From a virus, in the UHGV virus genome UHGV-0311442: a stretch of 64,000 nucleotides of DNA. One strand, given 5' to 3'. A program made the translations under genes and the position numbers. This document shows positions 3,547 through 47,728 of this stretch, piece after piece (the stretch's first letter is position 1; each line of letters starts with the position of its first letter). The notes beneath the pieces were generated by a model. It did not search any database. It was not told the DNA's origin and saw only the letters and a list, made by a program, of their open reading frames with translations.

Positions 3547-4002
3547 TCAGTACAAACACGATGTCAAGTATTGGTTATACGAATCGAGCAGTGTCTGACG
3601 GTCGGAACGGTAATTCCACAACAAATTATTGAGTTTACGCGATAAATCACGGCTAATCTCTTGGGGCGTTAAAGAACTTTCATCAAGAGATAAGCGTTCA
3701 GGTACAACATGTAACTTCGGTAACTCATAACGTTCACAAAGTGGAGCCAGCATTGGTGGGCTCCAGCCACGTTTAACGGCTTGTTGGTTTAAATTTCGGG
3801 TGTAGACATAAACGTAGTAAGCATAGGTGTTGACATCCGCAACATACTCACGCATTGCATTATTGTCAATTTTCCAATTCACCATTATTGGCGGTGTAGG
3901 AGGAAGTTCCAGTGGCCTATAAGCTGGACGTTTAACTTCGTCGCCGTAGCTATTACTCACCAACCCCACGAACACCATCATGATGAATAACAGCATTTTC
4001 AT
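3547..4002 (-). CDS. secreted protein (signal peptide), unknown function
   Basis: N-terminus MKMLLFIMMVFVGLVSNSYG; AAGGAG 6 nt upstream of ATG at 4002 (track start 4005 is TTG). Confidence 0.5.
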   Translation of the reverse strand: MKMLLFIMMVFVGLVSNSYGDEVKRPAYRPLELPPTPPIMVNWKIDNNAMREYVADVNTYAYYVYVYTRNLNQQAVKRGWSPPMLAPLCERYELPKLHVVPERLSLDESSLTPQEISRDLSRKLNNLLWNYRSDRQTLLDSYNQYLTSCLY

Positions 4003-4005
4003 CAA

Positions 4006-8723: not shown

Positions 8724-9233
8724 TTAGAAGAACGGCTGGTTTGGAATGACAGCGTACTCTAAAATGAACATGTGTTCTGGGGCGTCTTCTTTACGCCAGA
8801 CTTTGTGCGTCGTCACAAGTTTTTCCAGAATCGTTAAAAAACTACGCTGGCAGTATGTGTTTTCACCAAGCAGTAGATTTTGAAGTTCTACAGTAGCGTC
8901 CATATACGCCTGTTTAAAGACTAAACTACGATTATACTGTCCGGTAAAATTCCAAAGCAAGACTTTCCCTTCTTCGGTTTCTTTTACCGTTGGCCGTAAA
9001 CCACAAATCCACAACAAGGCAAGGTTGACGTTCCAGTCAAACTCTAAACCTTCTTCTTCGTCATCACCGAATGCTGTGGGTAAAGCATCGTAAAATTCGT
9101 GTTTCTCTGCGAATTCTTCATCTGACTTAATCTCGTCTTCGATGCTGCTTCGGACGATACTGTAAACGTCTTTCGCGGTCAATTGTGCGGCTTTTGTAAT
9201 GCCTTTATACCAATCGGTTACTACGATGCTCAA
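8724..9233 (-). CDS. hypothetical protein (169 aa), probable TTG start
   Basis: no ATG near N-terminus; TTG at 9233 preceded by GAGGAG at ideal spacing; overlaps stop of upstream gene. Confidence 0.45.
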   Translation of the reverse strand: MSIVVTDWYKGITKAAQLTAKDVYSIVRSSIEDEIKSDEEFAEKHEFYDALPTAFGDDEEEGLEFDWNVNLALLWICGLRPTVKETEEGKVLLWNFTGQYNRSLVFKQAYMDATVELQNLLLGENTYCQRSFLTILEKLVTTHKVWRKEDAPEHMFILEYAVIPNQPFF

Positions 9234-9928
9234 AGGGTAACTCCTCTATTGATTGGAAAACTCGTGTTTATCGTATCCCAAATTTTACTAACTTCCGCCA
9301 ATTGAATCTGACGTGGTGTTTTCTTCGCAAACGCAAGCTGACGTGGGGCCGAGCCCACAACAACAGGCACATCGATTTTCGCGCTATAGAACGCGGCGTC
9401 TTTCATAAAGCCTGCCATTTCTCGTTGTGCTGCTCGAGATTTGCTTTTGATTCGCGTGTGAGCGCCACTTTCACCCCAGTGGTAAGCTAACGCAACTTCA
9501 GCCATGGTGGGCTTGCGTTTGAGTCGTTTGGTTAACCCCTTTTCAAGATGTTTAACATACGCGGCAGCCAGCAAAACAGCATTACGCGGATTATACAAAT
9601 CGGCGTTCTGACTAAGACCTAATTCTTTTCCATAAAGCCTTAGCAGATTACGCTTGGTACTTGGAAGCATCTGTACCAGGCTGTGTGCTCGTGAGCTTTT
9701 GTTGTAAGCCTTGGGATCAAAACGCGATTCACGATAAATCAGCGTAATCATCAGCTTAGGATCAACGCCTTGCTTTCGAGAGATTTCCACAATTAACGGG
9801 CTGACTTTTTCGAACCGATGTTGGATTTGTGTAAACTCACGCTGATGCTTAGATTGCGGCGTTGATGTTGACGCCTGTGCGTTAAACGCGAAAAGTGTTA
9901 CCAGTAAAAGAAAGAAGATACGAAACAT
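9230..9928 (-). CDS. secreted soluble lytic transglycosylase (SLT domain)
   Basis: signal peptide MFRIFFLLLVTLFAFNAQAS; SLT motifs ITLIYRESRFDP and SLVQMLPST; GGAG RBS before the second ATG (9928). Confidence 0.6.
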   Translation of the reverse strand: MFRIFFLLLVTLFAFNAQASTSTPQSKHQREFTQIQHRFEKVSPLIVEISRKQGVDPKLMITLIYRESRFDPKAYNKSSRAHSLVQMLPSTKRNLLRLYGKELGLSQNADLYNPRNAVLLAAAYVKHLEKGLTKRLKRKPTMAEVALAYHWGESGAHTRIKSKSRAAQREMAGFMKDAAFYSAKIDVPVVVGSAPRQLAFAKKTPRQIQLAEVSKIWDTINTSFPINRGVTL

Positions 9929-10028
9929 TTTGTTTCTCCAGTTGGATTTATACATTTCCGTATTCCGTAAGACGAAATGACGGCGCGGACAGCTAATACT
10001 CCTTTGTTGTGTGCCCTAATGATAATAT

Positions 10029-15943: not shown

Positions 15944-15969
15944 AAAAAGGACCCCGGACGTACCGGGGT
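15944..15969 (-). terminator. rho-independent terminator
   Basis: hairpin ACCCCGG-acgta-CCGGGGT with T-run on minus strand. Confidence 0.5.
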
Positions 15970-15980
15970 CAAGACTACAC

Positions 15981-16370
15981 TCAATGATCTAATTCAATAG
16001 CACCAGCCATCTTGCCCCGTTCTTCGATAACAATCAGATAACGGTCGCGAGATTTGCTTTTAGCGAGAGTTAAGACAACAGTAGGGTCGCATGTTTTCGT
16101 GGTGATAGGAAGAACCTCTCTTTCGACGGAATCGAGCAGAAAGTAATAACCTGCGGGACACATTGTGCCACCGTCAGCTTTTACCAGAATATAGCGCCCG
16201 TCTGCGCCGACTTCTTGGCAGATTGTTTCACCGACTTCGCAAACTTCAAACCCCGGAGGATTGTACTGATAATCGGTATTGTTGTTTGGGGTTAGCAGTA
16301 AATCGTTAACTTGAGTAGATGCTGCTACACTCAGGGAGAAGAAGAATGCTAAAACGCAGACGAGACGCAT
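15981..16370 (-). CDS. secreted protein 1 of 5 (signal peptide)
   Basis: MRLVCVLAFFFSLSVAAS; AAGGAG RBS. Confidence 0.55.
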   Translation of the reverse strand: MRLVCVLAFFFSLSVAASTQVNDLLLTPNNNTDYQYNPPGFEVCEVGETICQEVGADGRYILVKADGGTMCPAGYYFLLDSVEREVLPITTKTCDPTVVLTLAKSKSRDRYLIVIEERGKMAGAIELDH

Positions 16371-16380
16371 GAGTTACTCC

Positions 16381-16791
16381 TTAAATTTTAAGTTTATCCA
16401 TAGCTACAACGATAGGTTTTTCCGAAGTGTCTAATATCCCTACCATTGGCACACCATCTACGACTTCGAAGAATGGTTTGTTATTACCAGAGCATAGACG
16501 TTTGTCGTTGTATTCGAGACGTTGGGCCTTCCACGTTTCGAGGTTGAGTACAGACATTGGGCTGTCGTAGCACCAGGCACCACCTTGCTCAACGATGAAT
16601 ACGTATCTGCTACCTTTGTATTTAAACAGACTCTTCGCCTGACAGTACAACCCGTCAATTTCCGTACAATAGAAATCATCGGTGCTATTGACGTATTTAA
16701 TATTGTCTGGCAACTGAATCGTCTTTGCTGTAGCGTTGACAGAGAACAGAACAGCCATTGCAATGAGAAGAGTGTTGATGATAGTTTTCAT
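16381..16791 (-). CDS. secreted protein 2 of 5 (signal peptide)
   Basis: MKTIINTLLIAMAVLFSVNATA; AAGGA RBS. Confidence 0.55.
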   Translation of the reverse strand: MKTIINTLLIAMAVLFSVNATAKTIQLPDNIKYVNSTDDFYCTEIDGLYCQAKSLFKYKGSRYVFIVEQGGAWCYDSPMSVLNLETWKAQRLEYNDKRLCSGNNKPFFEVVDGVPMVGILDTSEKPIVVAMDKLKI

Positions 16792-16802
16792 GATAAAAGT
16801 CC

Positions 16803-17288
16803 TTAGTATTTAGATTGTTCTACGTATTTCTTAACCAGGTAAGCGAATTCAGCAACACCGATATCACCGAACCAAATCAGGTAACCGGGGTCGATGTTGT
16901 AGTAATAGCCGACGAGTTTCTTGGTGTGTGGGTTGTATAGCGTTACGATGTATTCCCAACCACAAGCGTTAGCTTTACAACCGCCGCTTTCAATCCAGAT
17001 TTTGTTGTTGATATTTACCGGATACATGTTACCGCCAGGGCCATCCATGTAACCTTTAGAGCCGAACATACCATCCAGTCCCACAGGGTCTAGTGTTTTA
17101 TCAACAACGGCTTTAAACGACTTATCGGTATCGTACAAGTCGTTGATGTTTGGGCACGCATTTGGCTGACCTTCCCAAGCGTTTCCATCGCAGGTAAGCA
17201 ATTCGTCTACGGAGGCCGCATCTACAGTTGGCGTGGCACCGATAAACAAGAAAACCAGAAAGAACATCAGTGTATGTAAACGTTTCAT
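16803..17288 (-). CDS. secreted Cys-containing protein 3 of 5 (signal peptide)
   Basis: MKRLHTLMFFLVFLFIGATPTVDAAS; AAGGAG RBS; several Cys in mature part. Confidence 0.55.
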   Translation of the reverse strand: MKRLHTLMFFLVFLFIGATPTVDAASVDELLTCDGNAWEGQPNACPNINDLYDTDKSFKAVVDKTLDPVGLDGMFGSKGYMDGPGGNMYPVNINNKIWIESGGCKANACGWEYIVTLYNPHTKKLVGYYYNIDPGYLIWFGDIGVAEFAYLVKKYVEQSKY

Positions 17289-17306
17289 TGTAACTACTCC
17301 TTTAGA

Positions 17307-17693
17307 TTATTCGGCAGGACGATTTAAGGTAACGCGTCCGATTAATTCGGCGTTGTGAAAGAAGTCCACAGCGGTATAATTACCAACGGATAATGGGTGA
17401 ATACTAACTGACATTACTTTCGGTTGTTCGCAAGCAATATCGGTTAGACGTTGGTAGACTTGCGCACGGGTGTCAGCAATGAGTAACCCCGTACACGCTT
17501 CACCACGCACTAAACGATAAACTTGCAGTTTACCGAAACTGCGCATTAACGTAGGCGTCTCATCCGGGTTGATAATCGGTGAGTCAGGAGCCGGTTCGTA
17601 ATAGCGGACATCCGAATCACCGAAAGCATAAGTGCCAGTAATTCCGACCGCACAGAAAATAATGATAGTATAAAGTATAGTTCTGATATTCAT
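17307..17693 (-). CDS. secreted protein 4 of 5 (signal peptide)
   Basis: MNIRTILYTIIIFCAVGITGTYAFG; start ambiguous (GTG 17699 or ATG 17693). Confidence 0.5.
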   Translation of the reverse strand: MNIRTILYTIIIFCAVGITGTYAFGDSDVRYYEPAPDSPIINPDETPTLMRSFGKLQVYRLVRGEACTGLLIADTRAQVYQRLTDIACEQPKVMSVSIHPLSVGNYTAVDFFHNAELIGRVTLNRPAE

Positions 17694-17721
17694 TTTCACG
17701 CACTCTAAAAAAGATTAATAG

Positions 17722-18183
17722 TTATTTGTTAGGACGGGTGTGCCCACAGTTTTGGAAGAAAGTTTCAGATAAACGATCGCCTTCTACGGTAAAGTTAGCG
17801 GCATCGTTACCATTGATACTCACACTGAAAGTTTTGGCATTACCGATAGCATTAACGAAAGCAACCCAAGCGTGTTCTGCCTTGTCACTACCGTCCACGG
17901 TAGGGATGTTATAGGTTTTGCCGTTTACGACAATATCCATCGTGTTATCTTCAGCGTTAGTTGCACCTACGGGTTCCCCGTAATACCAAACCATGCGACC
18001 GTAAAATTTGCGATTCGCAGTTTCAGTGTCACAGTTGATAGACAGTCCGTTTCCGGCGGTGTCTTCAATTTCGTAAACTGCCTGGCCAGGGTTTTGTATT
18101 TGTTCCCAGCTGTTGATAGCGGCGTGTGCAGTATTGAAACCGATTACGAAAAGGGCGATTAAAAAGGAAGTGAAGATTTTCAT
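17722..18183 (-). CDS. secreted protein 5 of 5 (signal peptide)
   Basis: MKIFTSFLIALFVIGFNTAHA; AAAGGAG RBS; first gene after promoter-like motif. Confidence 0.55.
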   Translation of the reverse strand: MKIFTSFLIALFVIGFNTAHAAINSWEQIQNPGQAVYEIEDTAGNGLSINCDTETANRKFYGRMVWYYGEPVGATNAEDNTMDIVVNGKTYNIPTVDGSDKAEHAWVAFVNAIGNAKTFSVSINGNDAANFTVEGDRLSETFFQNCGHTRPNK

Positions 18184-18230
18184 TGTTTTGCTCCTTTATG
18201 GCGTTAATGTATAAAGAGTTAATCGTAACT

Positions 18231-18267
18231 CTCACCTAAGTAATATATATCTGAAATTATTTTTAAT
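18231..18267 (-). promoter_or_regulatory. conserved promoter-like motif, copy 1
   Basis: minus-strand reading ATTTCAGATATATATTACTTAGGTGAG, then a 5'-UTR hairpin and RBS of 17722..18183. Confidence 0.45.
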
Positions 18268-18276
18268 ATTAACGAA

Positions 18277-18307
18277 CAAAAAATAAAAGGTGGGGGTAAA
18301 CCCCCAC
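18277..18307 (-). terminator. rho-independent terminator
   Basis: hairpin GTGGGGG-taaa-CCCCCAC with T-run on minus strand. Confidence 0.55.
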
Positions 18308-18312
18308 CGATG

Positions 18313-18891
18313 TTATACATCGAACCGGTACTGCCGGGAGTTAATGAGGAACTCGGTATTCAGCTCAATCCATTCGAGTAAATCACCCAACGGTAATCGG
18401 TTTGGGTTTTCTAACTCAATAGACGCTACCGGATAAGAGTTTACTAATTCCGTAATTGCCTCAATACCCTCTTGCGTTCCGTCGTCTTCTAAGGTGATTG
18501 TAAACGGCATATCGGTACGATCCGCATTAGGATTGTACAAACTGACTTTCGTTGCTTGGACAAACGCAGTCAGGTCGTCACGTATAATGCGTGTATCAGG
18601 CGCTAGAACTACCCAGAGATGTTGTCCTGGCTGGAGTTTACGTTTTGCGTAGTTTAAGAACGGGTTAGCCGGTAAGCTTTCCAAACCACTGCAAATGTTC
18701 CGTAAATGAATCCCTCGTGGGTCTTTATAGTCCACGCTGAAGATTCCTACCGGTTCCTTCGCTGCCTGTTTTATCAGAAAGACCAATACCGTGTCCGCTC
18801 TTTCTGGTAAGGAAAGCTCTATTCCCTCAAGCTCCCCATCGACGAGGTTTTCCAACCAAACGTCTTTTCGCATTTCTATTAATCGGTACAC
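18313..18891 (-). CDS. hypothetical protein (192 aa), GTG start
   Basis: GTG at 18891 preceded by GAGGTG at 5 nt. Confidence 0.5.
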   Translation of the reverse strand: MYRLIEMRKDVWLENLVDGELEGIELSLPERADTVLVFLIKQAAKEPVGIFSVDYKDPRGIHLRNICSGLESLPANPFLNYAKRKLQPGQHLWVVLAPDTRIIRDDLTAFVQATKVSLYNPNADRTDMPFTITLEDDGTQEGIEAITELVNSYPVASIELENPNRLPLGDLLEWIELNTEFLINSRQYRFDV

Positions 18892-18903: not shown

Positions 18904-19677
18904 CTATTGATTAAGTTTTACATCGGCAATAAACAGCAATTGTTTACCATGTTGCTGCACTTCTTTCCAACCTAGTTTCATAGCAGCGTCAACAACATCT
19001 AACATGCTGTAACGGGACATCAACGCGGTTGATTTTGTTCCTGACATTAAATAAAGCGGCTCATTAGGGCAACGGTCTCGAGCATCAGGAAGTTCTCGAA
19101 TAACCGCTGAGCCTTCGGGTGCGGTAACAACGTGAATCACGGTAAATGGTCTCTTATGCGTTAAATAGATACGAAATCCAACGTGTTCAGATTCATGAAA
19201 GATTTTCTTCACAACCACATCTTTTAGTGTTGTCTGAACATCATCCCCAGGTAATATCGTGGATTCACGAGAAACGAAACAACGACTATTTTCAATCGTG
19301 GAGAAATAATTACGTATCGGCAAACTGGCGTTATGATCGCGCAGTTTTTTGCTCAATAGATCGAAGTTCAGTTCTTTAACTTTTTCTAACCACTCTTTGG
19401 CTTGTTGAATGTAATAACTACCAACAGCGCGATAAGTTAATACCTTACCTGTGCTCACTTTCCAAAGCTTGATGCTTAGTGAATTTGGCTTATAGCGACG
19501 ATACTCACCCTGCGTATGGTTGATGCGCTCGTAACGCTCTACATCATCAACTGGTGCAGATTCGACCGATTGTAATTGCAGCGTACGATCTAATCTATCG
19601 GCAAATAGTAGTGATGATAGCGGGCCTTCGATCATATACGGTTCGGTTTTAAAGATATCGTCTAAATGGACTTTCAT
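18904..19677 (-). CDS. GW...QLLF-motif paralog family member (257 aa)
   Basis: C-terminus AMKLGWKEVQQHGKQLLFIADV shared with three neighbours. Confidence 0.55.
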   Translation of the reverse strand: MKVHLDDIFKTEPYMIEGPLSSLLFADRLDRTLQLQSVESAPVDDVERYERINHTQGEYRRYKPNSLSIKLWKVSTGKVLTYRAVGSYYIQQAKEWLEKVKELNFDLLSKKLRDHNASLPIRNYFSTIENSRCFVSRESTILPGDDVQTTLKDVVVKKIFHESEHVGFRIYLTHKRPFTVIHVVTAPEGSAVIRELPDARDRCPNEPLYLMSGTKSTALMSRYSMLDVVDAAMKLGWKEVQQHGKQLLFIADVKLNQ

Positions 19678-19744: not shown

Positions 19745-20896
19745 TTAAAGGTCAGCAACAAACAGCAGCTGACTGCCGTACGGTTCGACAGATTTCCAAC
19801 CGTAATCTTTACCGATCGTCGTTAGATGGCCGGTATTTAACTTTTTGTCAACCATCCGCAGACGCATCATTAGCGTATTGGATTCTGCCGCATCGAGTAA
19901 CAACGCAGGTTCTTTTTCAGTGCGGTCATCCGCTTTCGGGAAGAAACTGTAATACTGACTTTTGGGCAGTTCGATTGTCAACGTATAGTTTTTCTTTGTA
20001 ATGAATAACGCCATCCCTTCGAAATTACAATCGAAACGATATTCCCAACCCGCCTCGGCTAAAACGTCTTTTAGCATTTCCATGACTTTAAGCTGGTTAA
20101 CGCTAGGCAGTCGGTAAGCTGCAAGGTTACTTGGAAATATGCGTATACCGTCGACGACACTATCGGTGGTTTCGTCAATAAGTTCAGGATAACGTTGCGA
20201 GAAAATATGATCGCTCTTGCTTTTCTCTTCGATGTCACGAATGAATTGGGCTATTTCGTCTCTTAAGCCAGACACTTGATTTTCTCCTTCGACTTCAATA
20301 ATCTGGTGGGGTTCGCCGCTAATTAAAATGTGGTAAACGATGTCGTCGGTAGAACGGTAAGTGAGTTTGATAGCTTTATCACTTAACATTTCGTAGCGGA
20401 AGAAACTTTCGTACCAAGTTGACCCGAAATCGTTTCGTGTAAGTTCCTGCTCAACTTTGATGGTTTTTGCTTCAAAACCAATTAACCCACTTAATAACGC
20501 GTGTTCTGGTTTAGTTAAAATGTTCGCACCGTGAAAGGGCACTTTCTCAAGCTGAAAACATAAATTACTGACTTTACCACTTGGGAAGACCTTAAACATA
20601 ATCTTCCGGCTGCTACTCTTTTCCCTAACAACGAGTTTACGGTAATTTAGTCCACAATTTGTGTAAACCGCGAACTTGTAACCTTCAATTTCTTCATCGT
20701 AAGTACAGACATCGACAGGTGCGATAATCTCATTGTATTCAGTAAGTACACAGCAGCCCAAGTTATAACCAAACAACTCACGTTGTAATGAAGATTCGAT
20801 GGTTAAGCTTGGTAGTGACCAAGTCCGATTATAGCATCTGTCCATCAGTTCTTTTAGGATCTTGGCATGTCCTGGCTTAGAAATAATATTTCGCAT
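19745..20896 (-). CDS. GW...QLLF-motif paralog family member (383 aa)
   Basis: C-terminus GKDYGWKSVEPYGSQLLFVADL. Confidence 0.55.
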   Translation of the reverse strand: MRNIISKPGHAKILKELMDRCYNRTWSLPSLTIESSLQRELFGYNLGCCVLTEYNEIIAPVDVCTYDEEIEGYKFAVYTNCGLNYRKLVVREKSSSRKIMFKVFPSGKVSNLCFQLEKVPFHGANILTKPEHALLSGLIGFEAKTIKVEQELTRNDFGSTWYESFFRYEMLSDKAIKLTYRSTDDIVYHILISGEPHQIIEVEGENQVSGLRDEIAQFIRDIEEKSKSDHIFSQRYPELIDETTDSVVDGIRIFPSNLAAYRLPSVNQLKVMEMLKDVLAEAGWEYRFDCNFEGMALFITKKNYTLTIELPKSQYYSFFPKADDRTEKEPALLLDAAESNTLMMRLRMVDKKLNTGHLTTIGKDYGWKSVEPYGSQLLFVADL

Positions 20897-25331: not shown

Positions 25332-28300
25332 ATGGCTGTCGTCCTAGACCCACACTTCAAAAAACCGGGGAATAAAATAACCGGTGAAGCGGTCGCCGTC
25401 TTTGGTACGAAATACCGAATGTTGGTACCTGCCCACGCCCCTTTTTTCACCACATCCCTGGTGGTCAAGAGCGGCGGCAAAACACTGACCATAGGCGACG
25501 ATTACGTTATTACGCACCCGTACGAGACCGGTATGTTGCGCACAGCCTATCTCATTCACGGGATGATTTGGATTGTTAATGACAAATACAAATCGAATTT
25601 TACGGTAGATTACCACGCCGTTGGTTGTGGTCAGGCTACCCAACAACAGATTACCGCAGAACGCGAACTCAATAAAGATAAATACCCGTCTGCGTGTCAG
25701 TGGGACACCGTCATCGGGGACGTTTACTTTCCACCGGTCGATATCCAGTTCGATTGGGAGAATTGGAAAGGTGAACTGGAATTAATGCAGGCTATTGCTG
25801 GATTAGGCGATTCGTTAGGGGAAGTCGTGAGTCGGCTTAACCCCATCGCACGCAATACCCTGGATTTAGAATACCGTGCTAATAGCAAGGTTATCACTTC
25901 CGAGCAGTATGCCGTATACGACAATAAAGGTGGCTTCACCTACAACACTGCCCGTCATCGTTATAGCTTGAGTTATAAAACTGCAACCTTTAACGACTAC
26001 GCCCTGTCAGTGAAACACAGAATTCCTGCTATTCTGCCAGACATGACGAAATTGAATCCAAACGAACAGATCGATTGGATGCTCTGTTATGCTAACGGCG
26101 GTGCAAGTATTCTACGGCTGCAGCTAAAACAGCGCAAAATCTCACTGGTCTTAACGGTCGCTATTGGTAGCGGTTCAACAAACTACGATTATACGTTAAT
26201 CAACGGCTTAACTGACGATGAGTTAAAAAACGATATCGATTTTAGTGTAACCCGACAACCCGGAAACGGTGTTTACGTCATCGTAGTAAAAACAAATAAA
26301 CAGACCATGGATTACACATTCAATGTCGATACGCCGCCTGATGAGTTCTCGGCAGGGTATTCGAAAACGGATGTTGCTAAATGGTTGAAGTTTAAAACGA
26401 ACATTAATTTAAACTGGTATGCGGCCGAAAACGATTATATTCAAATTCGTTCTTTACCCGGCGCACCAGAACCTGACATCGATAACGATGTTTACCAGTT
26501 AATAGTCAAATACCATCAGTTAGTTGAGCAGCTGTATCGTAACGCGCCTGCACACGAACACGTTACACGTAAGGACAACCCGCACACCGATACGTGGGGT
26601 CCGATCCGTGCGTTAGAGCTGAATGGTATTGCGACAGATGCCGCGTTAGCTTACGGGAAGACGAAACAGCAGTTAACGGATTATGTTAATGCTAAGTACC
26701 CAACACAAGCAACGTTAACCGCACAGAAAAAACTGCTTCGTGAATCGCCGAGCAAGAACGTTAACGGCACGATTACCACACTTCCGGGTTTTACTTCGTT
26801 CACGACGGAAGTTGATCCGGTCTCGATGTCGAAATACGTGAGTCCTTATTTTAGCGAAAGCTATGTTAGTAGTGGTCACAGATATCACGGCGCGCTTCGT
26901 TATACAGGAGCGAAAAGCGGTTTCAGTGCTAACTTTAATGCAGTGCCTGCCAACCTGCAAGATATTGACTTTATTGTTACTGGACGTAAAACAGCGTCTG
27001 GTAATGAAGCGGTCGGTAGGGTTGGTTTACGTTTCTACGAAAATCCTGGTAGTAACTCCGGTAAGTACGTAGAGATTACCGGTGAAGTCTGGTCCGGTAC
27101 TCTTACTATCGAACTGGCGTTGCACGGTTACGGTAGTCCGGTACCGGCAGTTCGGTATATTTCACAAGCTCCTAACCCGGCAATACCGGATGGGGATTTT
27201 ACGCTACGTTTTCAACTGAAGCGTACAGGGAATGTGTTTGACGTCGTTATTACCGTAAACAGTAAAACGTATAGCGGTAGGATTAACTTCAATAACATGG
27301 ACGCTGCGTTAGAAGCATTAGAGAATCAGCACCACTTTAAATCGCTGATCAATAATGTTGCCGACGCCGTTACCATTAGTTCGCAAAACAAAGGTAACAC
27401 GGTTACCATTAAGAAAGCACCGGATGTTGTTGACGAGACACGTTTAGGTGCCCAGTTTGTTGTTGATCCGAAATCCATCAAGTTTATTGGCCAAGGTTCA
27501 ACTGATGTTAACGTGGCTAACAACCCCGTAACGTTCCAAGCAGGTACTAACCAGCTTGTGCTATACCCCGATGACCGAGGATTGTTGTGGCGTGGTAAAA
27601 AACTCTTAGACCCCACCACCGTAGCCCCGTATCTGCCAGGCAATACCGCAGGTGGCACAGGTTTATTCTACGCAAGTTCGACAACAACGGTTACGATCAC
27701 CGGTAGCGGGATAAAAGCCTCGCCGTTCGTAGCGACCTTTATTCTTCCTACCGCGACCGATACAACAGCTCTGGCAGCTTGGCAGTTGACCGATGAGTTC
27801 GGTACCGCTGAAAACCTTGCAGCAACGCCAGCACTGATTGAAAAACTCGATGCGGAGTTCACCGGTAAGTTAGTTGCAGTTAAATCGTACATTAACGACA
27901 TGCAACTTACCAGCTCGGTTACTATCGATAAGATTACCTTTGGTTTAGGTAACGTTGCGAATACGCCTGATGTCGATTTACCGATTTCTACAGCACAACG
28001 TGCGGAGTTAGATAAATACTCGCCTAAAGTTCACCAACACCCGTTTACCGCTTTTGGTACAGGGAACGCAACCACAGCGCAACGTGGTCTGATTAAATTT
28101 GGTCTGGATGTGGATGATGCGACTTTAGCACTCGATGGGAGTGTGGTAATGGCGCAGACTTCCCAGATTGAAAAATTGGAGCGCGCTGTCAGCGGTGTTG
28201 ACTCGGAGGCACGTCTTGACATTATACGTTTTGGTGAGTCTGGTAACGACTTAATAGACGTTACGGTCAAAGACAAAATTCTGGTCACGCTTCCAGCTTC

Positions 28301-29654
28301 AACGTATTTTATCGGTGGTGAAACATACGACGTTCCGTTGATGACGATTAACGTCAGTGAACGTTTTCCGAAATTGAATACAGAAATCTACGCAGGGATT
28401 TTTGTTGATATTGTTGACAACAAAGCGAAGTATATTGTCCACGACAGCTACAGTCAGGCTGAAACGGATACCATGACGCGTGTAGGGTTGATTGGTGTTA
28501 ACGACATTTCTGAGGTGTTCGTTACGGAGATGCGTAATGTCACACGGTTGGGCGATTTCCGTGAACTGAAAGATCATAAAGCCGATGACAACGCACACAT
28601 TCAACGCTCCGCGTCACGTGCAGCGCTTGGGTTAGCTAACTTAACCGTAGGTGCGCCTTGCTGGGCTTCTGGACTCCAGGCAGTAGTACGCGGTGAAGCA
28701 GATTGGCGTTATGTTGTCGATGGGCAGTATAAAGCCTTAGACGGGGTGAAATACGACCAGCTCGCATCCAAGTGGATTTTTGACGCGAAAGGGGTAAGCG
28801 ATAACCTGCACGGGTTTATCCACAGCATGTTCCCAGCTTTTAAGAACGCAGGAATGCGGGTAAGTTGGGAAACAGAAAGTAACGCAAAAACCGGTACGGT
28901 GCTAGAAACTGTTTTAGGATGCTGGAAAAACACCGACGGCGAGTTTATGCGGTTGTCGTTACTTATCACTCGTGGTTATCGTTTAACTGACAGCAACGGT
29001 GAATATTGTTACGCAGGGTTCGGTTTGAACTTCGGTAGCGGGAAATCGGTAGTGTTAGGTTTCACACCAACGAAGCGTGTTACGCCTGCACCGTGGAATA
29101 CGTTACAACCTGACGTAACGTTTACCCACACCCGTGCTGCAAATAACGCAATAACGTTTAACGCAACATTGACCTTAGCGGGCACTACGTATACCATCGT
29201 GGTGTTTTTATCTGCGACTGATAAATACGTAAGTTGCACGGCAGCAGGGGGAGCTACGCAGAAAATCCCTCTAACTGACCGTTTAACTGGGTTCAATATC
29301 GCACCTATCGTTAACGATCCGTATACCCCTATTTACTACGGTTTAGGGGGACTTTATGAGGATGAAGTTCGTGCCAACATCCGTTCTACGGCAGATAGCG
29401 CAACCGCGAATAAAGTCTATGGTACGTTGTTAGACTATATTAGCAACTATTCCTCATTAAATCGTGTGCGCGTTATGGAATTGACCGGTGTCAGTTCAGA
29501 CCCCGAAACGCTTAATGCGTTAGTGGCAACTGAATTTAATAACAACCTGGCGGATTACGCTGCGTTACCGATACCTCCTTATCTTAACAAGGAGCGCGTA
29601 ATGTCGTTTATCGACACCAACAATAAAGTGCAGGCGGTAATCATTCGCGATTAA
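25332..29654 (+). CDS. tail fibre protein (1440 aa)
   Basis: AGGAG RBS; tail-fibre-type repeat motifs (GNVANTPDVDLPISTAQRAEL; GNATTAQRGLIKFG); N-terminal PFF module shared with the next three genes. Confidence 0.65.
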   Translation: MAVVLDPHFKKPGNKITGEAVAVFGTKYRMLVPAHAPFFTTSLVVKSGGKTLTIGDDYVITHPYETGMLRTAYLIHGMIWIVNDKYKSNFTVDYHAVGCGQATQQQITAERELNKDKYPSACQWDTVIGDVYFPPVDIQFDWENWKGELELMQAIAGLGDSLGEVVSRLNPIARNTLDLEYRANSKVITSEQYAVYDNKGGFTYNTARHRYSLSYKTATFNDYALSVKHRIPAILPDMTKLNPNEQIDWMLCYANGGASILRLQLKQRKISLVLTVAIGSGSTNYDYTLINGLTDDELKNDIDFSVTRQPGNGVYVIVVKTNKQTMDYTFNVDTPPDEFSAGYSKTDVAKWLKFKTNINLNWYAAENDYIQIRSLPGAPEPDIDNDVYQLIVKYHQLVEQLYRNAPAHEHVTRKDNPHTDTWGPIRALELNGIATDAALAYGKTKQQLTDYVNAKYPTQATLTAQKKLLRESPSKNVNGTITTLPGFTSFTTEVDPVSMSKYVSPYFSESYVSSGHRYHGALRYTGAKSGFSANFNAVPANLQDIDFIVTGRKTASGNEAVGRVGLRFYENPGSNSGKYVEITGEVWSGTLTIELALHGYGSPVPAVRYISQAPNPAIPDGDFTLRFQLKRTGNVFDVVITVNSKTYSGRINFNNMDAALEALENQHHFKSLINNVADAVTISSQNKGNTVTIKKAPDVVDETRLGAQFVVDPKSIKFIGQGSTDVNVANNPVTFQAGTNQLVLYPDDRGLLWRGKKLLDPTTVAPYLPGNTAGGTGLFYASSTTTVTITGSGIKASPFVATFILPTATDTTALAAWQLTDEFGTAENLAATPALIEKLDAEFTGKLVAVKSYINDMQLTSSVTIDKITFGLGNVANTPDVDLPISTAQRAELDKYSPKVHQHPFTAFGTGNATTAQRGLIKFGLDVDDATLALDGSVVMAQTSQIEKLERAVSGVDSEARLDIIRFGESGNDLIDVTVKDKILVTLPASTYFIGGETYDVPLMTINVSERFPKLNTEIYAGIFVDIVDNKAKYIVHDSYSQAETDTMTRVGLIGVNDISEVFVTEMRNVTRLGDFRELKDHKADDNAHIQRSASRAALGLANLTVGAPCWASGLQAVVRGEADWRYVVDGQYKALDGVKYDQLASKWIFDAKGVSDNLHGFIHSMFPAFKNAGMRVSWETESNAKTGTVLETVLGCWKNTDGEFMRLSLLITRGYRLTDSNGEYCYAGFGLNFGSGKSVVLGFTPTKRVTPAPWNTLQPDVTFTHTRAANNAITFNATLTLAGTTYTIVVFLSATDKYVSCTAAGGATQKIPLTDRLTGFNIAPIVNDPYTPIYYGLGGLYEDEVRANIRSTADSATANKVYGTLLDYISNYSSLNRVRVMELTGVSSDPETLNALVATEFNNNLADYAALPIPPYLNKERVMSFIDTNNKVQAVIIRD

Positions 29655-29667
29655 GGAGATTTTTTTG

Positions 29668-32600
29668 ATGAAAGCGTATCCTTACGATCCTCGGGGGACG
29701 AAAGCCGAGAATCACTTCTTAGAGGAGCGTATCATCGGGTCAGAAAATAACAACGATCGGGTGGTGATTTTAGACCATCGCCCGTTCTTTGAAGATTTAG
29801 TCGTCAGACAACCAGGTTCAACCACCCCACTGAGTCGTGGGGTGGACTACGAACTGCAATATCAGCTGACGGAACTGGATGACTCGGTAGCAGCCAACGT
29901 GTATTGTGGGGTACACCTTATCAACCCATCCATCAAAGGCATCGTAACCTTTGAAGGGCAAATGCTCGGCGGTACGTTCTACGACCCGTTTGTTGATATT
30001 CTCGATGAACTGGTGAAATATTTGAATAACCCAGTCAGTGCTGACTGGCTGTTATTAGACGGTAGACCATCGTTATATCCAGCGACGCCAGCAGCAACGT
30101 CCTGGGCGGATTTGCTGAACAAAAAATATTTAGCGTCGGCAGTTCACGATATTGAATTGAAAACCGACGACGCTAACCAGCTAATTAAAGACAAATTAGC
30201 TGAAGTTAAAGCGTTAGTGACTGCGTTGGGTAAAGAAATCGAAGCATTTAACTACCCGGCACATATCGCAGCGAAGAACCCGCACGAAACCACATCCGCG
30301 CAGATTAACGCGCATCCTGTTAACTTGAAAACACCCGACACCTTTATGGCGTACGGGTTAAAGTTGAAAGCACTGACGGATGAGCTGAAAGCGTTTCGTT
30401 TACCGCAGTCGGTTATCGATACGTATATCTCTCACTGGATTTCTTCGGAAGTGCGGGGCGTGTTTAACTGTACGGTGTCAGGAAACCGCGCACAGTTCCG
30501 TTCGAAAAACGGTGAGTCCGAAATCATTTTTGCCAACGATGGTTTTACGTTAAAATCCAACGGTTCTGTGGTGTTAGCGGTAGGGCATCTGGAAGGCACA
30601 GGTGCAGGACGCTATATCAACTGGCGTGCCGGTAAAAACACATTACGCATCGAGTCAACAGGCGATGCTTTAGGGATGAACAAACTCACCCTGAACGGTA
30701 ACCCGTTACTGACTACCACGGCGTTGATGGAATACCAACAAGATCCAGATGCGGGTTCTGGTGGCGGTGGCGACCCTGATGACTCGAAGGTGTACATTGA
30801 AGGTCGTAATGGGATTAGCTTTACCGGTAAAGGTTCTCGCGCCGACCCTATCGTGGGGACTATCGACCCAACAAAAGCGACAACCGCCGAAAAAGGCGTC
30901 GCTAAACTTAAAACAGGTAAAGGTACAGAAACGACTGGGGTTGCTGCAACACCGGCTTCGTTAGCACCATACTCGACCGACCTATCGGGGTATGTGGCTA
31001 AAACGACCATGATTAACGGTAAGCCGATGAACGACGGCTCCAGGACAATCACGAAAGCTGATCTGGGGTTAGGGCGAGCGGATAACACCGCAGACGTTGA
31101 CAAGCCGTTGTCTACCGAGTTAAATACGGCGCTTAGTGGTTTAGCGGATGCAGGTCACCACCACGATTGGTCGGAACTAGGCATTTATAAAGCCTCGCAA
31201 ACCGTTTACGGTATCGGTCGTTACGCAACTAACCAGAACGGTTTGGTTGAAAACCGTGCAGTGGTGCCGAACGTCTTAAAAGAACTTTCGGCGCGTTTAG
31301 ATGTGGTCGCCGCGGCGATTGCAAACGCGAAAGAAGGGTCGGTAACAGATTTCGCTGCGGTAAAAGGCGCAGACTGGCGCTTTAATAGCCAGGGTACGGC
31401 AATCTCCGTTCAAGATTTGAAATATTTCTATTTGCTGAACGGTGCGAAAGCTGATAGCGCCGTTACAGGTTCGATTGACCTGCAAACTACGCCGATGTTT
31501 AACTGGTTCTCACCGAACAACCAAATTGAGACGACCTGGCCTACGGGGAAAGTGAGTGCTGGTAAGGGCATTAGCTGGACAGGTATTGAAGAACCACCAC
31601 TAATGGGTTTCCAATCTGTTCCGGTAGGTAAAACTGCCTCACAGATGGGCGACCAGTCAGTTGTTACTGTGTTGGCCAAAACGCGGGTAAGAGCACGCCA
31701 GCCGAAGCTTTGGGTTTATGCCGCTGGAGGTGGCCCGGTTACAGTTTACATTAACGGTATCCAGGCAGCCACAGGCCAGTCTCCGCTCGTTGCAGTGTAC
31801 GAAACATCAGCGGACGTTGAAAACTACACCGTAGCGGTTAAAGCTGAGTGTAGCGACACGGCTAAATCCGCAGCGGTGCAATTCGAAATTTACGACGGTG
31901 ACTACCCCGTTTATTTCAGTGGCCCTGAAACGCACGTAGAGCTTCTCCAAGAGTTTGTTACAACACACGTAGGCATTCGTCATTATCTGTACGTTAACAT
32001 GCTCACAGGCTCTCTGTATTCGCGTACTGAGCCAATTCAGAGTATTGCAGTTGACCCTGAGCGCGGTTATATCGGCTACGTTGATATTGTTGCCGGTGAA
32101 TCTTACTCGAATAAAACCGTGAGTTTTGAAACCACGTTTGATTTCGGGAAAAGTACCGAGGTTAGTGAGCACATCGACGCTCGTAAAGCACACGGACTCA
32201 GTTCTGTAGACTGGACGTTAACGGATAACCCACGGTTGCCGTTATTAAATCGTGCGATTGCTGAACCGAGAACGTGTATTTTTAGAAAAGCGTTAACGGC
32301 CGGTACTGGTGATGTTTTTCATCTGGTAAGTCGTGGTCTTTATACCTACGCACACAACCAAAACGTGAAGTCCAGTCTTCAATACGTTGTGATACCTGAG
32401 GGTGCTACACCGTATTGCTGGTTTACACCGTTTAACCCGAAAGAAAACAACGCGCCGACGTTCGAAGGTTCGTTTGCGTTCGACGTTGACGATGTCGGTG
32501 GAACACAAGCACTCACGGCTGCACCGGATTTGGTGCTGTGTACGTCAACACAAGGTAGCAGCGTTAAACGTCGTTACGTACGTATTGACCTAACTGCCAA

Positions 32601-33849: not shown

Positions 33850-33887
33850 GACAGGCTGCCTGCGGGCAGTTGTGTGTCCGTAGGTAA

Positions 33888-33924
33888 CCCCTCCCTGTAA
33901 TGGGGAGGGGTATCCATTTTATTT
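33888..33924 (+). terminator. rho-independent terminator
   Basis: hairpin CCCCTCCC-tgtaa-TGGGGAGGGG followed by TATCCATTTTATTT. Confidence 0.55.
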
Positions 33925-33943
33925 AAAAGTAGGAGTCTTTACG

Positions 33944-39127: not shown

Positions 39128-39167
39128 CGCCACGAGACAAGGACGTCTCGGATTAAGGAGAGTGGCC

Positions 39168-47248: not shown

Positions 47249-47728
47249 ATGCTAAAACGTTTTCTACTTGTTGTAACTGCAGCACTTTCGTTGGCAAGCT
47301 GTGCCCTACAACCCACCGCTAACGGTCAATTCTCGACTGTACCCGTAGAGCCACACGACATGGTTATTTACACCTGTATGGGTGTTGAGCAAGATTTTGC
47401 AAATTACAAACCTGTCGTCAGTTCGACTAACCTAATGTTAGGTTCAGTAACTGTAGTCGATACTGGTGCTAACTGGGTAGCCACTTGGCCAAACGGTAAG
47501 ATTGAATCACCACAACTTTATAAAGATCTATTAGGTAAAGTTAATGGGAATATCGATCCTATCACGGGACAACGTTACTACCGTGTAAATGGACTACTTT
47601 CAAAAACGCCAACATTTGCGTATTCTACTTTAGAATATAAAACGGGCGATGGTAAAGGCATTACTTTCTTCCACTGTAAGGAAGGTGTAGCTCCTGACAG
47701 TGGAACAATGCTCCATCCTGCGGAATAA
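47249..47728 (+). CDS. lipoprotein (159 aa)
   Basis: signal peptide with lipobox LASC (MLKRFLLVVTAALSLASC); own terminator; opposite strand to neighbours. Confidence 0.6.
   Translation: MLKRFLLVVTAALSLASCALQPTANGQFSTVPVEPHDMVIYTCMGVEQDFANYKPVVSSTNLMLGSVTVVDTGANWVATWPNGKIESPQLYKDLLGKVNGNIDPITGQRYYRVNGLLSKTPTFAYSTLEYKTGDGKGITFFHCKEGVAPDSGTMLHPAE

What the first reader, a model, noticed from the sequence alone, without database searches (positions are those of the whole stretch)
15981..18183. Operon of five small secreted proteins
Five consecutive minus-strand genes (129-161 aa), separated by 10-22 bp, each with a strong SD and a classical N-terminal signal peptide, sit downstream of a promoter-like motif. 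A block of exported proteins in a lytic phage suggests periplasmic functions such as host envelope remodelling, superinfection exclusion or inhibition of host periplasmic enzymes.
Basis: partly seen in the sequence, partly recalled or inferred. Interest (0 to 1): 0.6.

Follow-up and report, generated by a model that had tools for sequence, protein, structure and literature searches.

The report
Jumbo-phage early operon of exported proteins
A giant phage related to Salmonella phage SPN3US carries an apparently early-transcribed block of five small proteins that look built for export to the host periplasm; one has the fold of the bacterial lysozyme inhibitor Ivy, and pieces of the block have been captured by E. 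coli genomic islands, which points to a role in protecting the cell wall or excluding rival phages.

Summary
Five consecutive minus-strand genes (153, 130/128, 161, 136 and 129 aa) all have signal-peptide architecture, AXA-type cleavage sites and an even number of Cys in the mature part. The unit lies between two hairpin terminators. A 28-bp element upstream matches the published phiKZ/201phi2-1-type early-promoter consensus.

The core is conserved and syntenic in SPN3US (gp180-183) and in Erwinia jumbo phages, where all members are annotated as hypothetical proteins.

What the proteins are:
- **p1:** a member of the uncharacterised YfjT family.
- **p4 and p5:** paralogues in a four-Cys superfamily that also includes SPN3US gp181. 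No solved relative was found.
- **p2:** a separate family, also with no solved relative.

E. coli CP4-type islands carry a partly decayed p2-p3-p4 block, present in 138 of 5,426 complete genomes. A preprint reports that knocking down an E. coli O121 Ivy-like protein with a CKANTC loop raises T7 plating.

Best reading (confidence about 0.45): an early periplasmic envelope-protection or superinfection-exclusion cassette that works like T4 Spackle but is unrelated to it. No activity has been demonstrated, and four of the five proteins have no assigned mechanism.

The parts
18289..18308 (-). Intrinsic-terminator-like hairpin (GGTGGGGG-TTTA-CCCCCACC followed by TTTTATTTTT). It ends the upstream gene (18313-18891) and insulates the cassette.
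   Evidence: sequence
18229..18256 (-). Early-promoter-like element TTTCAGATATATATTACTTAGGTGAGAG, preceded by an AT-rich tract. The TATATTAC core is at 18240-18247. The element ends 45 nt upstream of the p1 ATG.
   Evidence: An exact second copy lies at 54675-54702 and a third with 3 mismatches at 58583-58610, each upstream of a co-oriented gene, with 0 expected by chance. It matches the published consensus for 201phi2-1, OBP and phiKZ promoters (PMC7058600 Table 2). This is the only stretch with DNA-level similarity to SPN3US-like genomes. The same element lies upstream of the cassette in SPN3US and three other relatives.
17722..18183 (-). p1, 153 aa: exported protein of the YfjT family (PF27224, phrog_3429). 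Predicted signal peptide 1-21 (AHA|A). Two conserved Cys (C51, C146). This extra first gene is absent from the SPN3US and Erwinia-phage cassettes.
17307..17699 (-). p2, 130 aa from GTG (more likely 128 aa from the ATG at 17693): family A, equivalent to SPN3US gp180 (49% identity). Hydrophobic N-terminus with a TYA|F site. Two invariant Cys (C69, C90). No curated-family or solved-structure match found.
16803..17288 (-). p3, 161 aa: exported Ivy-fold protein. Signal peptide about 1-24 (VDA|A). Four invariant Cys (C33, C45, C104, C109). It fills the variable slot that holds gp181-like family B in SPN3US.
16962..16979 (-). Codons for the p3 loop C104-K-A-N-A-C109, which aligns with the inhibitory CKPHDC loop of Ivy. 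In the model it lies between strands 96-104 and 112-119.
16381..16791 (-). p4, 136 aa: exported protein of family C, equivalent to SPN3US gp182 (30% identity). Member of the four-Cys B/C/D superfamily. Modelled as all-beta.
15981..16370 (-). p5, 129 aa: exported protein of family D, equivalent to SPN3US gp183 (47% identity). Paralogue of p4 in the same four-Cys superfamily (C44, C51, C71, C94).
15950..15970 (-). Intrinsic-terminator-like hairpin (GACCCCGG-TACGT-CCGGGGTC followed by CTTTTT) that closes the unit. An equivalent hairpin plus T-run follows the last cassette gene in all six related phages examined.

Best explanation
The region is a self-contained transcription unit of a jumbo phage related to SPN3US. 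It is probably transcribed early, from a promoter of the type described as early in phiKZ-like phages. It encodes five small, probably Sec-exported and disulphide-bonded periplasmic proteins.

I propose that it conditions the envelope of the newly infected cell. p3, an Ivy-fold protein, would bind and block peptidoglycan-cleaving glycosidases in the periplasm. Candidate targets are the cell-wall-piercing lysozyme or lytic-transglycosylase modules of superinfecting phages, and possibly host autolysins or external lysozyme. The other four proteins (YfjT-like p1, family-A p2, paralogues p4 and p5) would be further periplasmic binders or inhibitors aimed at other envelope targets. The net effect would be superinfection exclusion and resistance to lysis from without. 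That is functionally analogous to the early periplasmic protein Spackle of T4, but built on unrelated folds.

What is shown:
- the gene structure
- the export-signal architecture
- the repeated promoter-like element and the terminators
- synteny across phage genera
- the Ivy fold of p3
- the paralogy of p4 and p5
- the presence of the p2-p3-p4 block in E. coli islands

What is inferred:
- actual export
- early timing
- inhibitor activity and its targets
- the exclusion phenotype
For: - **Export:** all five proteins and all homologues have n/h/c signal architecture, and each mature part has an even number of Cys at conserved positions. A run of five such ORFs has a chance probability of about 2.7e-4.
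- **Transcription unit:** the 28-bp element occurs three times in the window with 0 expected and matches the consensus tabulated for phiKZ-like phages, which that paper's discussion calls an early promoter for OBP (PMC7058600). The same element precedes the cassette in SPN3US, a related Logan-assembled phage, SNUABM_29 and SPAsTU. A terminator follows the last gene in all six phages.
- **What Ivy proteins do:** they inhibit C-type lysozyme. P. aeruginosa Ivyp1 and Ivyp2 inhibit MltB, and E. coli Ivy partially inhibits MltA and MltB (PMC10139938).
- **Anti-phage phenotype:** knock-down of E. coli O121 Hypo_04657, an Ivy-like protein with loop CKANTC, increases T7 plating (bioRxiv 10.1101/2024.04.20.590424). 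CKANTC is the loop of p3 homologues P0011 and P0012.
- **Island capture:** a p2-remnant/p3/p4 block sits in the cargo region of CP4-type islands, in the phage gene order, in 138 of 5,426 complete E. coli genomes. A family-B gene lies next to a YfjT-family gene in a Yersinia island.
- **Fast divergence:** against the closest related phage, p3 is 65% identical and p4 and p5 are 76-78%. Upstream neighbours are 92-95%; the two small downstream genes are 82% and 77.5% and the SMC-like gene 87%. The p3 slot is variable across genera.
- **Precedent:** T4 Spackle is an early periplasmic protein that inhibits the gp5 tail lysozyme (PMC7677548).
Against:
- The phage p3 loop lacks the His, Pro and Asp of CKPHDC (it reads CKANAC). 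Its score against the Ivy equivalog model is 18.6 bits against a cut-off of 180. It may therefore not inhibit lysozyme-type enzymes at all.
- The AF2 models are of only moderate confidence (pLDDT 65-68).
- That Hypo_04657 belongs to the p3 family rests on the organism, the Ivy-like fold and the loop motif, not on its sequence. The preprint's domain description (Ivy-like N-terminal half, C-terminal helical segment) does not obviously match the order in P0011 and P0012.
- Early timing is inferred from a motif only. TATATTAC alone is not enriched in the window (5 found, 2.8 expected).
- The element was not found within 400 nt upstream of the cassette in phiEaH2 or SNUABM_43.
- E. coli Ivy is only a weak lytic-transglycosylase inhibitor in vitro.
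Confidence: 0.45

Rival explanations
1. Control of lysis timing. The exported proteins, p3 in particular, restrain the phage's own exported SLT-type lytic transglycosylase or host autolysins, so that the wall survives the long jumbo-phage cycle. This would be an anti-lysin or lysis-inhibition role, not exclusion of other phages.
For: The window encodes a transglycosylase at 9230-9955 with an N-terminal export signal (phrog_4067 E=1e-47; related to phiKZ endolysin gp144 and to MltC and EmtA). Ivy proteins can inhibit lytic transglycosylases in vitro.
Against: The promoter is of the early type, not late. Related phages fill the p3 slot with an unrelated family or leave it empty. Island-borne copies persist in E. 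coli without the phage enzyme. The reported phenotype of the presumed homologue is reduced plating of an unrelated phage, T7.
Confidence: 0.2
2. The canonical Ivy role. p3 protects the infected enterobacterial cell from animal C-type lysozyme in the gut, and the other four proteins are unrelated periplasmic accessory proteins or chaperones.
For: p3 has the Ivy fold and the disulphide loop. Some island alleles keep a His in the loop (CKAHAC). K-12 ivy is annotated as 'periplasmic chaperone, inhibitor of vertebrate C-type lysozyme'.
Against: The phage alleles have Asn, not His (CKANAC, CKSNAC). This does not explain a five-gene early cassette, or its conservation in Erwinia (plant-pathogen) phages that lack the Ivy-like gene.
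Confidence: 0.1
3. The proteins are exported but act on host physiology unrelated to peptidoglycan or phage exclusion. Examples are blocking or modifying receptors, porins or efflux and transport systems, signalling through envelope-stress pathways, or chaperoning phage components across the envelope. The Ivy fold would then be only a scaffold.
For: Four of the five proteins have no relative of known function. The catalytic-site-binding residues of the Ivy loop are not conserved.
Against: This reading is not specific. It does not account for the T7 phenotype of the presumed homologue, though it is compatible with receptor masking.
Confidence: 0.2
4. The N-termini are not cleaved signal peptides. 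The proteins are membrane-anchored (signal-anchor) or virion components, and the apparent 'secretome' is an artefact of hydrophobic N-termini.
For: Only a home-made heuristic was used, because SignalP was not available. The uncharged stretch in p2 is up to about 19 residues and could span the membrane.
Against: The h-regions are mostly 11-15 residues and are followed by small-x-small sites in all five proteins and their homologues. p3 is homologous to soluble periplasmic Ivy. The SPN3US counterparts are not annotated as virion proteins. Even a signal anchor would still place the domains in the periplasm.
Confidence: 0.05

Closest known systems
Ivy (inhibitor of vertebrate lysozyme; E. coli YkfE/Ivy, P. 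aeruginosa Ivyp1; PDB 1XS0, 1GPQ, 1UUZ)
   Different: Only about 16% identity. The score is far below the NCBIfam equivalog cut-off (18.6 against 180 bits). The loop reads CKANAC and lacks the His, Pro and Asp of CKPHDC. There is an extra N-terminal Cys pair. The gene is encoded by a jumbo phage and by mobile islands, not at the chromosomal ivy locus. Activity is untested.
T4 Spackle (gp61.3), and the T4 Imm/Sp superinfection-exclusion pair
   Same: A small, early-expressed, signal-peptide-bearing periplasmic protein of a virulent phage. Spackle inhibits a peptidoglycan-cleaving enzyme, the gp5 tail lysozyme of incoming phages (PMC7677548). This is the working model proposed for p3.
   Different: No homology was detected: none of the five matches a PHROG annotated for exclusion, and the p3 model's best structural matches are Ivy. 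Here there is a five-gene cassette, not a single gene. No exclusion phenotype has been shown.
E. coli O121 Hypo_04657 (PHAGEPACK preprint, bioRxiv 10.1101/2024.04.20.590424)
   Same: It is Ivy-like, with a CKANTC loop identical to that of p3 homologues P0011 and P0012 (58-60% identical to p3). Its knock-down raises T7 plating efficiency, which is the only functional datum for this protein family.
   Different: It is bacterial and island-borne, not phage-borne. The mechanism is not established there either.
YfjT and YfjS of cryptic prophage CP4-57 (E. coli K-12), and the cargo region of CP4-type islands
   Same: p1 is a YfjT-family member (PF27224 on a 95%-identical homologue; hhalign 100%; shared phrog_3429). 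A family-B gene lies next to a YfjT-family gene in a Yersinia CP4-type island. The lipoprotein YfjS shows a weak match to the core motif of the p4/p5 superfamily.
   Different: p1 is only about 21-24% identical to the bacterial YfjT proteins. The YfjS link is inconclusive (E=1.8e-4 and 6e-3). YfjT is annotated as uncharacterised in K-12 and turned up only in passing mentions in the literature search; I found no described function for YfjS.
SPN3US gp180-gp183 (RefSeq gp086-gp083) and phiEaH2 gp104-gp107
   Same: Direct syntenic counterparts, upstream of the same two small genes and the SbcC/SMC-like gene. Families A, C and D are shared (49%, 30% and 47% identity), all have export signals, and the promoter and terminator arrangement is the same.
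   Different: Those phages have a four-gene cassette (three genes in Machinavirus SNUABM_43). Family B (gp181) occupies the slot where this phage has the Ivy-like p3, and they have no YfjT-like first gene. All are annotated as hypothetical, and my literature searches found nothing on them.

Membership tests
Ivy family (C-type lysozyme inhibitor) | Ivy fold: an antiparallel sheet flanked by helices | tested here: met
Ivy family (C-type lysozyme inhibitor) | Sequence-profile membership (NCBIfam NF007443 equivalog, cut-off 180 bits; Pfam was not available) | tested here: not met
   18.6 bits, E=1.3e-3, covering residues 86-133 only. The PDB profile hit to Ivy has E=0.56. hhalign against E. coli Ivy gives E=3.8e-4 with 36% probability. 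p3 is a distant homologue, not an Ivy orthologue.
Ivy family (C-type lysozyme inhibitor) | Protruding disulphide-closed loop C-x4-C at the equivalent hairpin | tested here: met
   C104-KANA-C109 aligns column for column with C-KPHD-C of 1GPQ and 1XS0. It lies between strands 96-104 and 112-119 of the model. Both Cys are invariant in the family.
Ivy family (C-type lysozyme inhibitor) | Loop sequence CKPHDC, with the His that inserts into the lysozyme active site | tested here: not met
   Phage alleles read CKANAC and CKSNAC. Island alleles read CKAHAC, CKANAC, CKANTC and CKSDAC. Only the Lys and the two Cys are conserved. A His is present in some island alleles.
Ivy family (C-type lysozyme inhibitor) | Sec signal peptide and periplasmic location | tested here: inconclusive
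   The heuristic n/h/c architecture with a VDA|A site is present in p3 and all its homologues. SignalP and experiment were not available.
Ivy family (C-type lysozyme inhibitor) | Inhibition of C-type lysozyme or lytic transglycosylase | not testable with these tools
   This needs purified protein and enzyme assays.
YfjT family (PF27224) | Profile match to the family | tested here: met
   The 95%-identical homologue in L014 and L015 carries a precomputed PF27224 hit. p1 finds family members by phmmer at E=1.7e-11 to 4e-4 in 1.84 billion proteins. The p1-family profile against K-12 YfjT gives 100% probability, but that profile includes a close YfjT relative. p1 and YfjT share phrog_3429.
YfjT family (PF27224) | Signal peptide followed by N-x-W, plus a conserved Cys pair (about C51 and a C-terminal Cys) | tested here: met
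   Alignment A5.
T4 Spackle / Imm-type superinfection exclusion proteins | Sequence or fold homology to Sp (gp61.3) or Imm | tested here: not met
   None of the five matches a PHROG with an exclusion annotation: every hit is 'unknown function'. There is no PADLOC hit. The best structural matches of the p3 model are Ivy, not Spackle.
T4 Spackle / Imm-type superinfection exclusion proteins | Early expression and periplasmic or membrane location | tested here: inconclusive
   An early-type promoter motif and export signals are present. Both are predictions.
T4 Spackle / Imm-type superinfection exclusion proteins | Blocks infection by the same or related phages | not testable with these tools
   The only indirect evidence is the T7 efficiency-of-plating phenotype of the presumed E. 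coli homologue.
Spanin / lysis cassette (i-spanin with o-spanin, holin) | An outer-membrane lipoprotein with a lipobox Cys, a type-II membrane protein, and holin transmembrane domains | tested here: not met
   None of the five has a lipobox or an additional transmembrane segment. The promoter is of the early type.
B/C/D four-Cys superfamily (phrog_17072, phrog_8968, phrog_5248; SPN3US gp181, gp182, gp183) | Profile-profile homology and four conserved Cys with an RYxLV...GGxxCP core | tested here: met
   hhalign on mature parts: B-C 96% (E=3e-9), B-D 94% (E=2e-7), C-D 81% (E=1e-5). Conserved Cys are shown in alignments A2 and A4. PHROG cross-hits agree. p4 belongs to family C and p5 to family D.

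The most novel reading that the evidence does not exclude
SPN3US-type jumbo phages deploy, immediately after genome entry, a modular periplasmic 'lock-down' cassette. Each small disulphide-bonded protein neutralises a different step used by competing phages to cross the envelope. The Ivy-fold module would block their wall-piercing muramidases or transglycosylases.

CP4-type genomic islands of Enterobacteria have repeatedly captured modules of this cassette (p2-p3-p4 recently) as host anti-phage defences. The yfjT and possibly yfjS genes in those islands would be older relatives with the same kind of role; I did not test the direction of that relationship. If so, this would give a first function to these y-ome genes and define a new class of periplasmic, entry-blocking defence proteins shared between phages and islands.
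Probability: 0.2. Interest if true: 0.8.

Novelty: new variant of a known kind. Interest (0 to 1): 0.58.

Why it matters
Almost nothing is known about what phiKZ/SPN3US-type jumbo phages do outside the cytoplasm. Research on these phages has centred on the phage nucleus and the early infection vesicle.

A conserved, apparently early operon devoted entirely to exported proteins suggests that these phages also manage the periplasm from the start of infection. The Ivy-fold member gives a concrete, testable hypothesis: inhibition of peptidoglycan-cleaving entry enzymes, a Spackle-like function reached with a different fold.

The same genes in 2.5% of complete E. coli genomes, inside CP4-type islands, link this phage cassette to a reported host factor that limits T7 and to the uncharacterised K-12 gene yfjT (and, more weakly, yfjS). 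If confirmed, this would add periplasmic entry-blocking proteins exchanged between virulent phages and islands to the catalogue of anti-phage mechanisms. It would also matter for phage-therapy cocktails that combine jumbo phages with other phages.

Tried and rejected
- The Pfam library was unavailable. PADLOC gave no hit for any of the five. NCBIfam gave only the weak Ivy hit for p3.
- The megablast match to SPN3US at about 114 kb is not a syntenic gene block. It is only the promoter-like element; the small proteins there show no similarity to the five.
- p1 and p3 have no tblastn match in 50,697 phage records.
- hhalign finds no link between p2 (family A) or p1 and the other families or Ivy. 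The PHROG cross-hit of p2 to phrog_5248 (E=0.003) probably reflects the signal peptide.
- Profiles of family A and of the p1 family found no solved relative.
- The YfjS link to the B/C/D superfamily is suggestive only.
- The BFVD fold search with the p3 model found nothing at E≤0.001.
- I first guessed that the 85-kb contig carrying P0010 and P0042 was a phage. It is an E. coli island.
- The sigma-70 promoter scan found no more sites than expected from shuffled sequence.
- I found no literature on SPN3US gp180-183 or on YfjT function.
Full report
**1. The observation**

The five minus-strand ORFs exist exactly as described:

| Protein | Coordinates | Length |
|---|---|---|
| p1 | 17722-18183 | 153 aa |
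| p2 | 17307-17699 | 130 aa from GTG |
| p3 | 16803-17288 | 161 aa |
| p4 | 16381-16791 | 136 aa |
| p5 | 15981-16370 | 129 aa |

The gaps between them are 22, 18, 11 and 10 bp. Homologues of p2 start at the position of the ATG at 17693, so p2 is probably 128 aa. It has the only weak ribosome-binding site; the other four have AGGAG/AAGGA at the usual spacing.

Each protein starts with a K/R-containing n-region, an uncharged h-region of about 11-15 residues and a small-x-small site: AHA|A, TYA|F, VDA|A, ATA|K and SVA|A. None has a lipobox or a further hydrophobic segment. The predicted mature parts contain 2, 2, 4, 4 and 4 Cys, and these are conserved in the homologues. That is what one expects of disulphide-bonded periplasmic proteins.

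With the same simple filter, only 8 of 73 non-overlapping ORFs in the window look exported. A run of five among them has a chance probability of about 2.7e-4. SignalP was not available, so export is a strong prediction, not a result.

**2. The transcription unit**

A G+C-rich hairpin with a T-run follows the upstream gene (18308-18289), and another follows p5 (15970-15950). Between the first hairpin and p1 lies an AT-rich tract and the 28-mer TTTCAGATATATATTACTTAGGTGAGAG (18229-18256, minus strand).

- The 28-mer recurs exactly at 54675-54702 and with three mismatches at 58583-58610. Each copy is upstream of a co-oriented gene, and none is expected by chance.
- It is the only part of the region with nucleotide similarity to SPN3US-like genomes.
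- It matches the promoter consensus tabulated for phiKZ-like phages: 201phi2-1 TTTRARR-BTATATTACDWHDGTG and phiKZ TATATTAC. For OBP that consensus is described as an early promoter (PMC7058600).
- The same element precedes the homologous cassette in SPN3US (91 nt before gp180), in a related Logan-assembled phage (64 nt), and, one small gene further upstream, in SNUABM_29 and SPAsTU.
- A hairpin terminator follows the last cassette gene in all six phages examined.

The block is therefore a conserved, insulated and probably early operon. I did not find the element within 400 nt upstream in phiEaH2 or SNUABM_43. The 8-mer TATATTAC alone is not enriched in the window.

**3. Genome context and conservation**

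The window comes from a jumbo phage that is only distantly related, at the protein level, to Salmonella phage SPN3US (Seoulvirus) and to the Erwinia phages phiEaH2 (Erskinevirus) and pEa_SNUABM_43 (Machinavirus).

The cassette is syntenic. It lies upstream of two small genes and the SbcC/SMC-like gene in every phage examined.

- p2 corresponds to SPN3US gp180 (49% identity; family A).
- p4 corresponds to gp182 (30%; family C).
- p5 corresponds to gp183 (47%; family D).
- The slot between families A and C is variable. It holds gp181-like family B in Seoulvirus and Erskinevirus, nothing in Machinavirus, and the unrelated p3 here.
- p1 is an additional first gene that these relatives lack. Neither p1 nor p3 has a tblastn match in 50,697 phage records.
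- A closer relative assembled from public reads (L014, L015) has the same five genes.

On mature sequences, families B, C and D are homologous to one another (hhalign 96%, 94% and 81%; E from 3e-9 to 1e-5). They share four Cys and an RYxLV...GGxxCP core. p4 and p5 are therefore paralogues. Family A and p1 stand apart.

All the SPN3US counterparts are annotated 'hypothetical protein', in a record where MS-identified virion proteins are labelled as such. They do not appear in the main text of the SPN3US essential-gene and virion-proteome paper. I found no literature on them.

**4. What the proteins are**

*p3.* The NCBIfam model for Ivy-family C-type lysozyme inhibitors matches residues 86-133 weakly (E=1.3e-3, far below the equivalog cut-off). 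A family profile aligns p3's C104-KANA-C109 loop column for column with the CKPHDC loop of Ivy structures 1GPQ and 1XS0, but at a non-significant E of 0.56. hhalign against E. coli Ivy gives E=3.8e-4 over 81 columns.

p3 is thus a distant Ivy-fold homologue that keeps the disulphide loop but lacks the His, Pro and Asp of the canonical inhibitory motif.

*p1.* It has only 15 relatives (E≤1e-3) among 1.84 billion representative proteins. These are exported proteins of about 150 aa with an N-x-W motif after the signal peptide and a conserved Cys pair. The family is Pfam PF27224 (YfjT), named after a gene of the K-12 cryptic prophage CP4-57. YfjT is annotated as uncharacterised in K-12 and I found no described function.

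*p2.* No relative was found in PDB, NCBIfam or PADLOC.

**5. The link to E. coli islands**

The closest relatives of p3 outside the two phages (58-66% identity) are chromosomal E. coli proteins. They lie in the cargo region of CP4-type integrative islands. The gene order there is dynamin-like GTPase, YjcZ, patatin, then [p3-like], then DUF932, antirestriction, RadC and CbeA/CbtA.

Local tblastn shows that these islands carry the phage block in the phage order:

- a p2-like pseudogene followed by an intact p3-like gene (L004-L008)
- p3-like plus p4-like, both frameshifted (L013)
- p3-like with an internal stop, plus an intact p4-like gene 80% identical to p4 (O121:H19, L018)
- both p3-like and p4-like intact (O146, L021)

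Families A and C are ancestral to the jumbo phages, being syntenic across several genera at 30-50% identity. The simplest reading is therefore transfer from a phage of this clade into the islands. One island allele (P0007) is 91% identical to the allele of the related phage (P0003), so some exchange is recent.

The p3-like gene is present in 138 of 5,426 complete E. coli genomes, and always on the chromosome. In Yersinia rohdei, a family-B gene lies next to a YfjT-family gene in the same type of island. K-12 YfjS, the lipoprotein encoded next to YfjT, shows a weak match to the core motif of the B/C/D superfamily: E=1.8e-4 against the merged profile, and E=6e-3 (score 21, against at most 15.7 for 30 shuffles) against family D. 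I treat this as suggestive only.

**6. Functional leads from the literature**

- Ivy proteins inhibit C-type lysozymes. P. aeruginosa Ivyp1 and Ivyp2 inhibit the lytic transglycosylase MltB, and E. coli Ivy partially inhibits MltA and MltB in vitro (PMC10139938).
- A preprint (bioRxiv 10.1101/2024.04.20.590424) reports that knocking down E. coli O121 'Hypo_04657' increases T7 plating efficiency. The protein is described as Ivy-like with a CKANTC loop in place of CKPHDC. CKANTC is exactly the loop of p3 homologues P0011 and P0012, and O121 strains carry the island copy. I infer that Hypo_04657 belongs to the p3 family, but I did not see its sequence.
- T4 Spackle is an early periplasmic protein that inhibits the gp5 tail lysozyme and so excludes superinfecting phages, without inhibiting the T4 endolysin (PMC7677548). 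It provides the mechanistic precedent.

**7. Further observations**

Against the closest related phage, p3 is the most divergent gene in the neighbourhood at 65% identity. p4 and p5 are 76-78%. The upstream neighbours are 92-95%, the two small downstream genes are 82% and 77.5%, and the SMC-like gene is 87%. Together with the variable slot, this is what one might expect of a gene involved in conflict, but it is not proof.

The phage also encodes an SLT-type lytic transglycosylase with an export signal (9230-9955). This keeps alive the rival idea that p3 regulates the phage's own lysin.

Ivy-like genes seem rare in sequenced phages. Canonical Ivy finds a single phage (PHB10) by tblastn, and the p3 model finds nothing in the BFVD viral structure library.

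**8. Verdict**

The best-supported account is an early periplasmic envelope-protection or superinfection-exclusion cassette. Its Ivy-fold member would block peptidoglycan-cleaving enzymes, and parts of the cassette have been domesticated by E. coli islands (confidence about 0.45). The rivals are control of the phage's own lysis (0.2), some other envelope function (0.2), canonical protection against animal lysozyme (0.1), and non-export (0.05).

On novelty:
- p3 is a new, divergent member of the Ivy fold in a new setting.
- p1 is a new phage member of the YfjT family.
- p2, p4 and p5 belong to uncharacterised families.
- The cassette as a whole, with its exchange with CP4-type islands, did not turn up in my literature searches.

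I rate it a new variant of a known kind (phage-encoded periplasmic exclusion or inhibitor proteins), of moderate to good interest and directly testable.

Noticed in passing
window 9230-9955 (-): This 241-aa protein has an N-terminal export signal (MYKSNWRNKMFRIFFLLLVTLFA|FNAQA) and an SLT-type lytic transglycosylase domain (phrog_4067 E=1e-47; PDB phiKZ endolysin gp144 and MltC/EmtA at E about 4e-7). It is a candidate secreted or SAR-type endolysin of this phage, and a possible target of the Ivy-like p3.
   Followed up: partly
window 54675-54702 (-) and 58583-58610 (-): Two further copies of the 28-bp early-promoter-like element (one exact, one with 3 mismatches). Each lies about 45-50 nt upstream of a co-oriented gene (54135-54629 and 57685-58536). 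They mark other probable early units.
   Followed up: partly
window 47249-47728 (+): This 159-aa protein has a lipoprotein-type signal (MLKRFLLVVTAALSLA-SC, i.e. a lipobox L-A-S-C) and matches phrog_9559 (unknown function). It is a possible outer-membrane lipoprotein or o-spanin candidate.
   Followed up: no
window 3547-4005 (-): Another small ORF (152 aa, TTG start) has a signal-peptide-like N-terminus (MMKMLLFIMMVFVGLVS|NSYGD). It was not examined further.
   Followed up: no
window 25332-40367 (+): Four consecutive large genes (1440, 1394, 1727 and 435 aa) cross-hit the same PHROGs (7557, 8078, 7449, 2163; 'virion structural protein'). They form a paralogous family of giant virion proteins, as in SPN3US-like phages.
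   Followed up: no
window 18904-19677 and 19745-20896 (-), just upstream of the cassette: The 257-aa and 383-aa proteins share a similar C-terminal region (…GWK.V…G.QLLF.AD…; 30-37% identity in cross-hits on L014). This suggests another local paralogue family.
   Followed up: no
L004-L008 (7687-8483), L013 (5504-6407), L018 (3820-4923), L021 (5001-5912): E. coli CP4-type islands: These islands carry the phage block as p2-remnant, p3-like and p4-like genes in phage order, between patatin/YjcZ and DUF932. The genes are variously intact, frameshifted or fused. The N-terminal extension of the 223-227-aa 'p3-like' proteins looks like an in-frame remnant of p2.
   Followed up: yes
L019 6001-7014 (Yersinia rohdei CP009787.1): A family-B (SPN3US gp181-like) gene lies directly next to a YfjT-family gene in a CP4-type island, between a WYL regulator and DUF932. 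This mirrors yfjR-yfjS-yfjT in K-12 and hints that YfjS is a diverged member of the B/C/D superfamily.
   Followed up: partly
Escherichia phage PHB10, MK524177.1 14591-14950 (-): This is the only phage among 50,697 records with a tblastn match to canonical E. coli Ivy (38% identity over 76% of the protein). It is annotated as a hypothetical protein.
   Followed up: no
L009 1903-2142, L010 1898-2137, L003 3387-3626: In SNUABM_29, SPAsTU and phiEaH2, a conserved 79-aa gene without a signal peptide lies between the promoter-like element and the first exported gene. It is absent from the window and from SPN3US.
   Followed up: no
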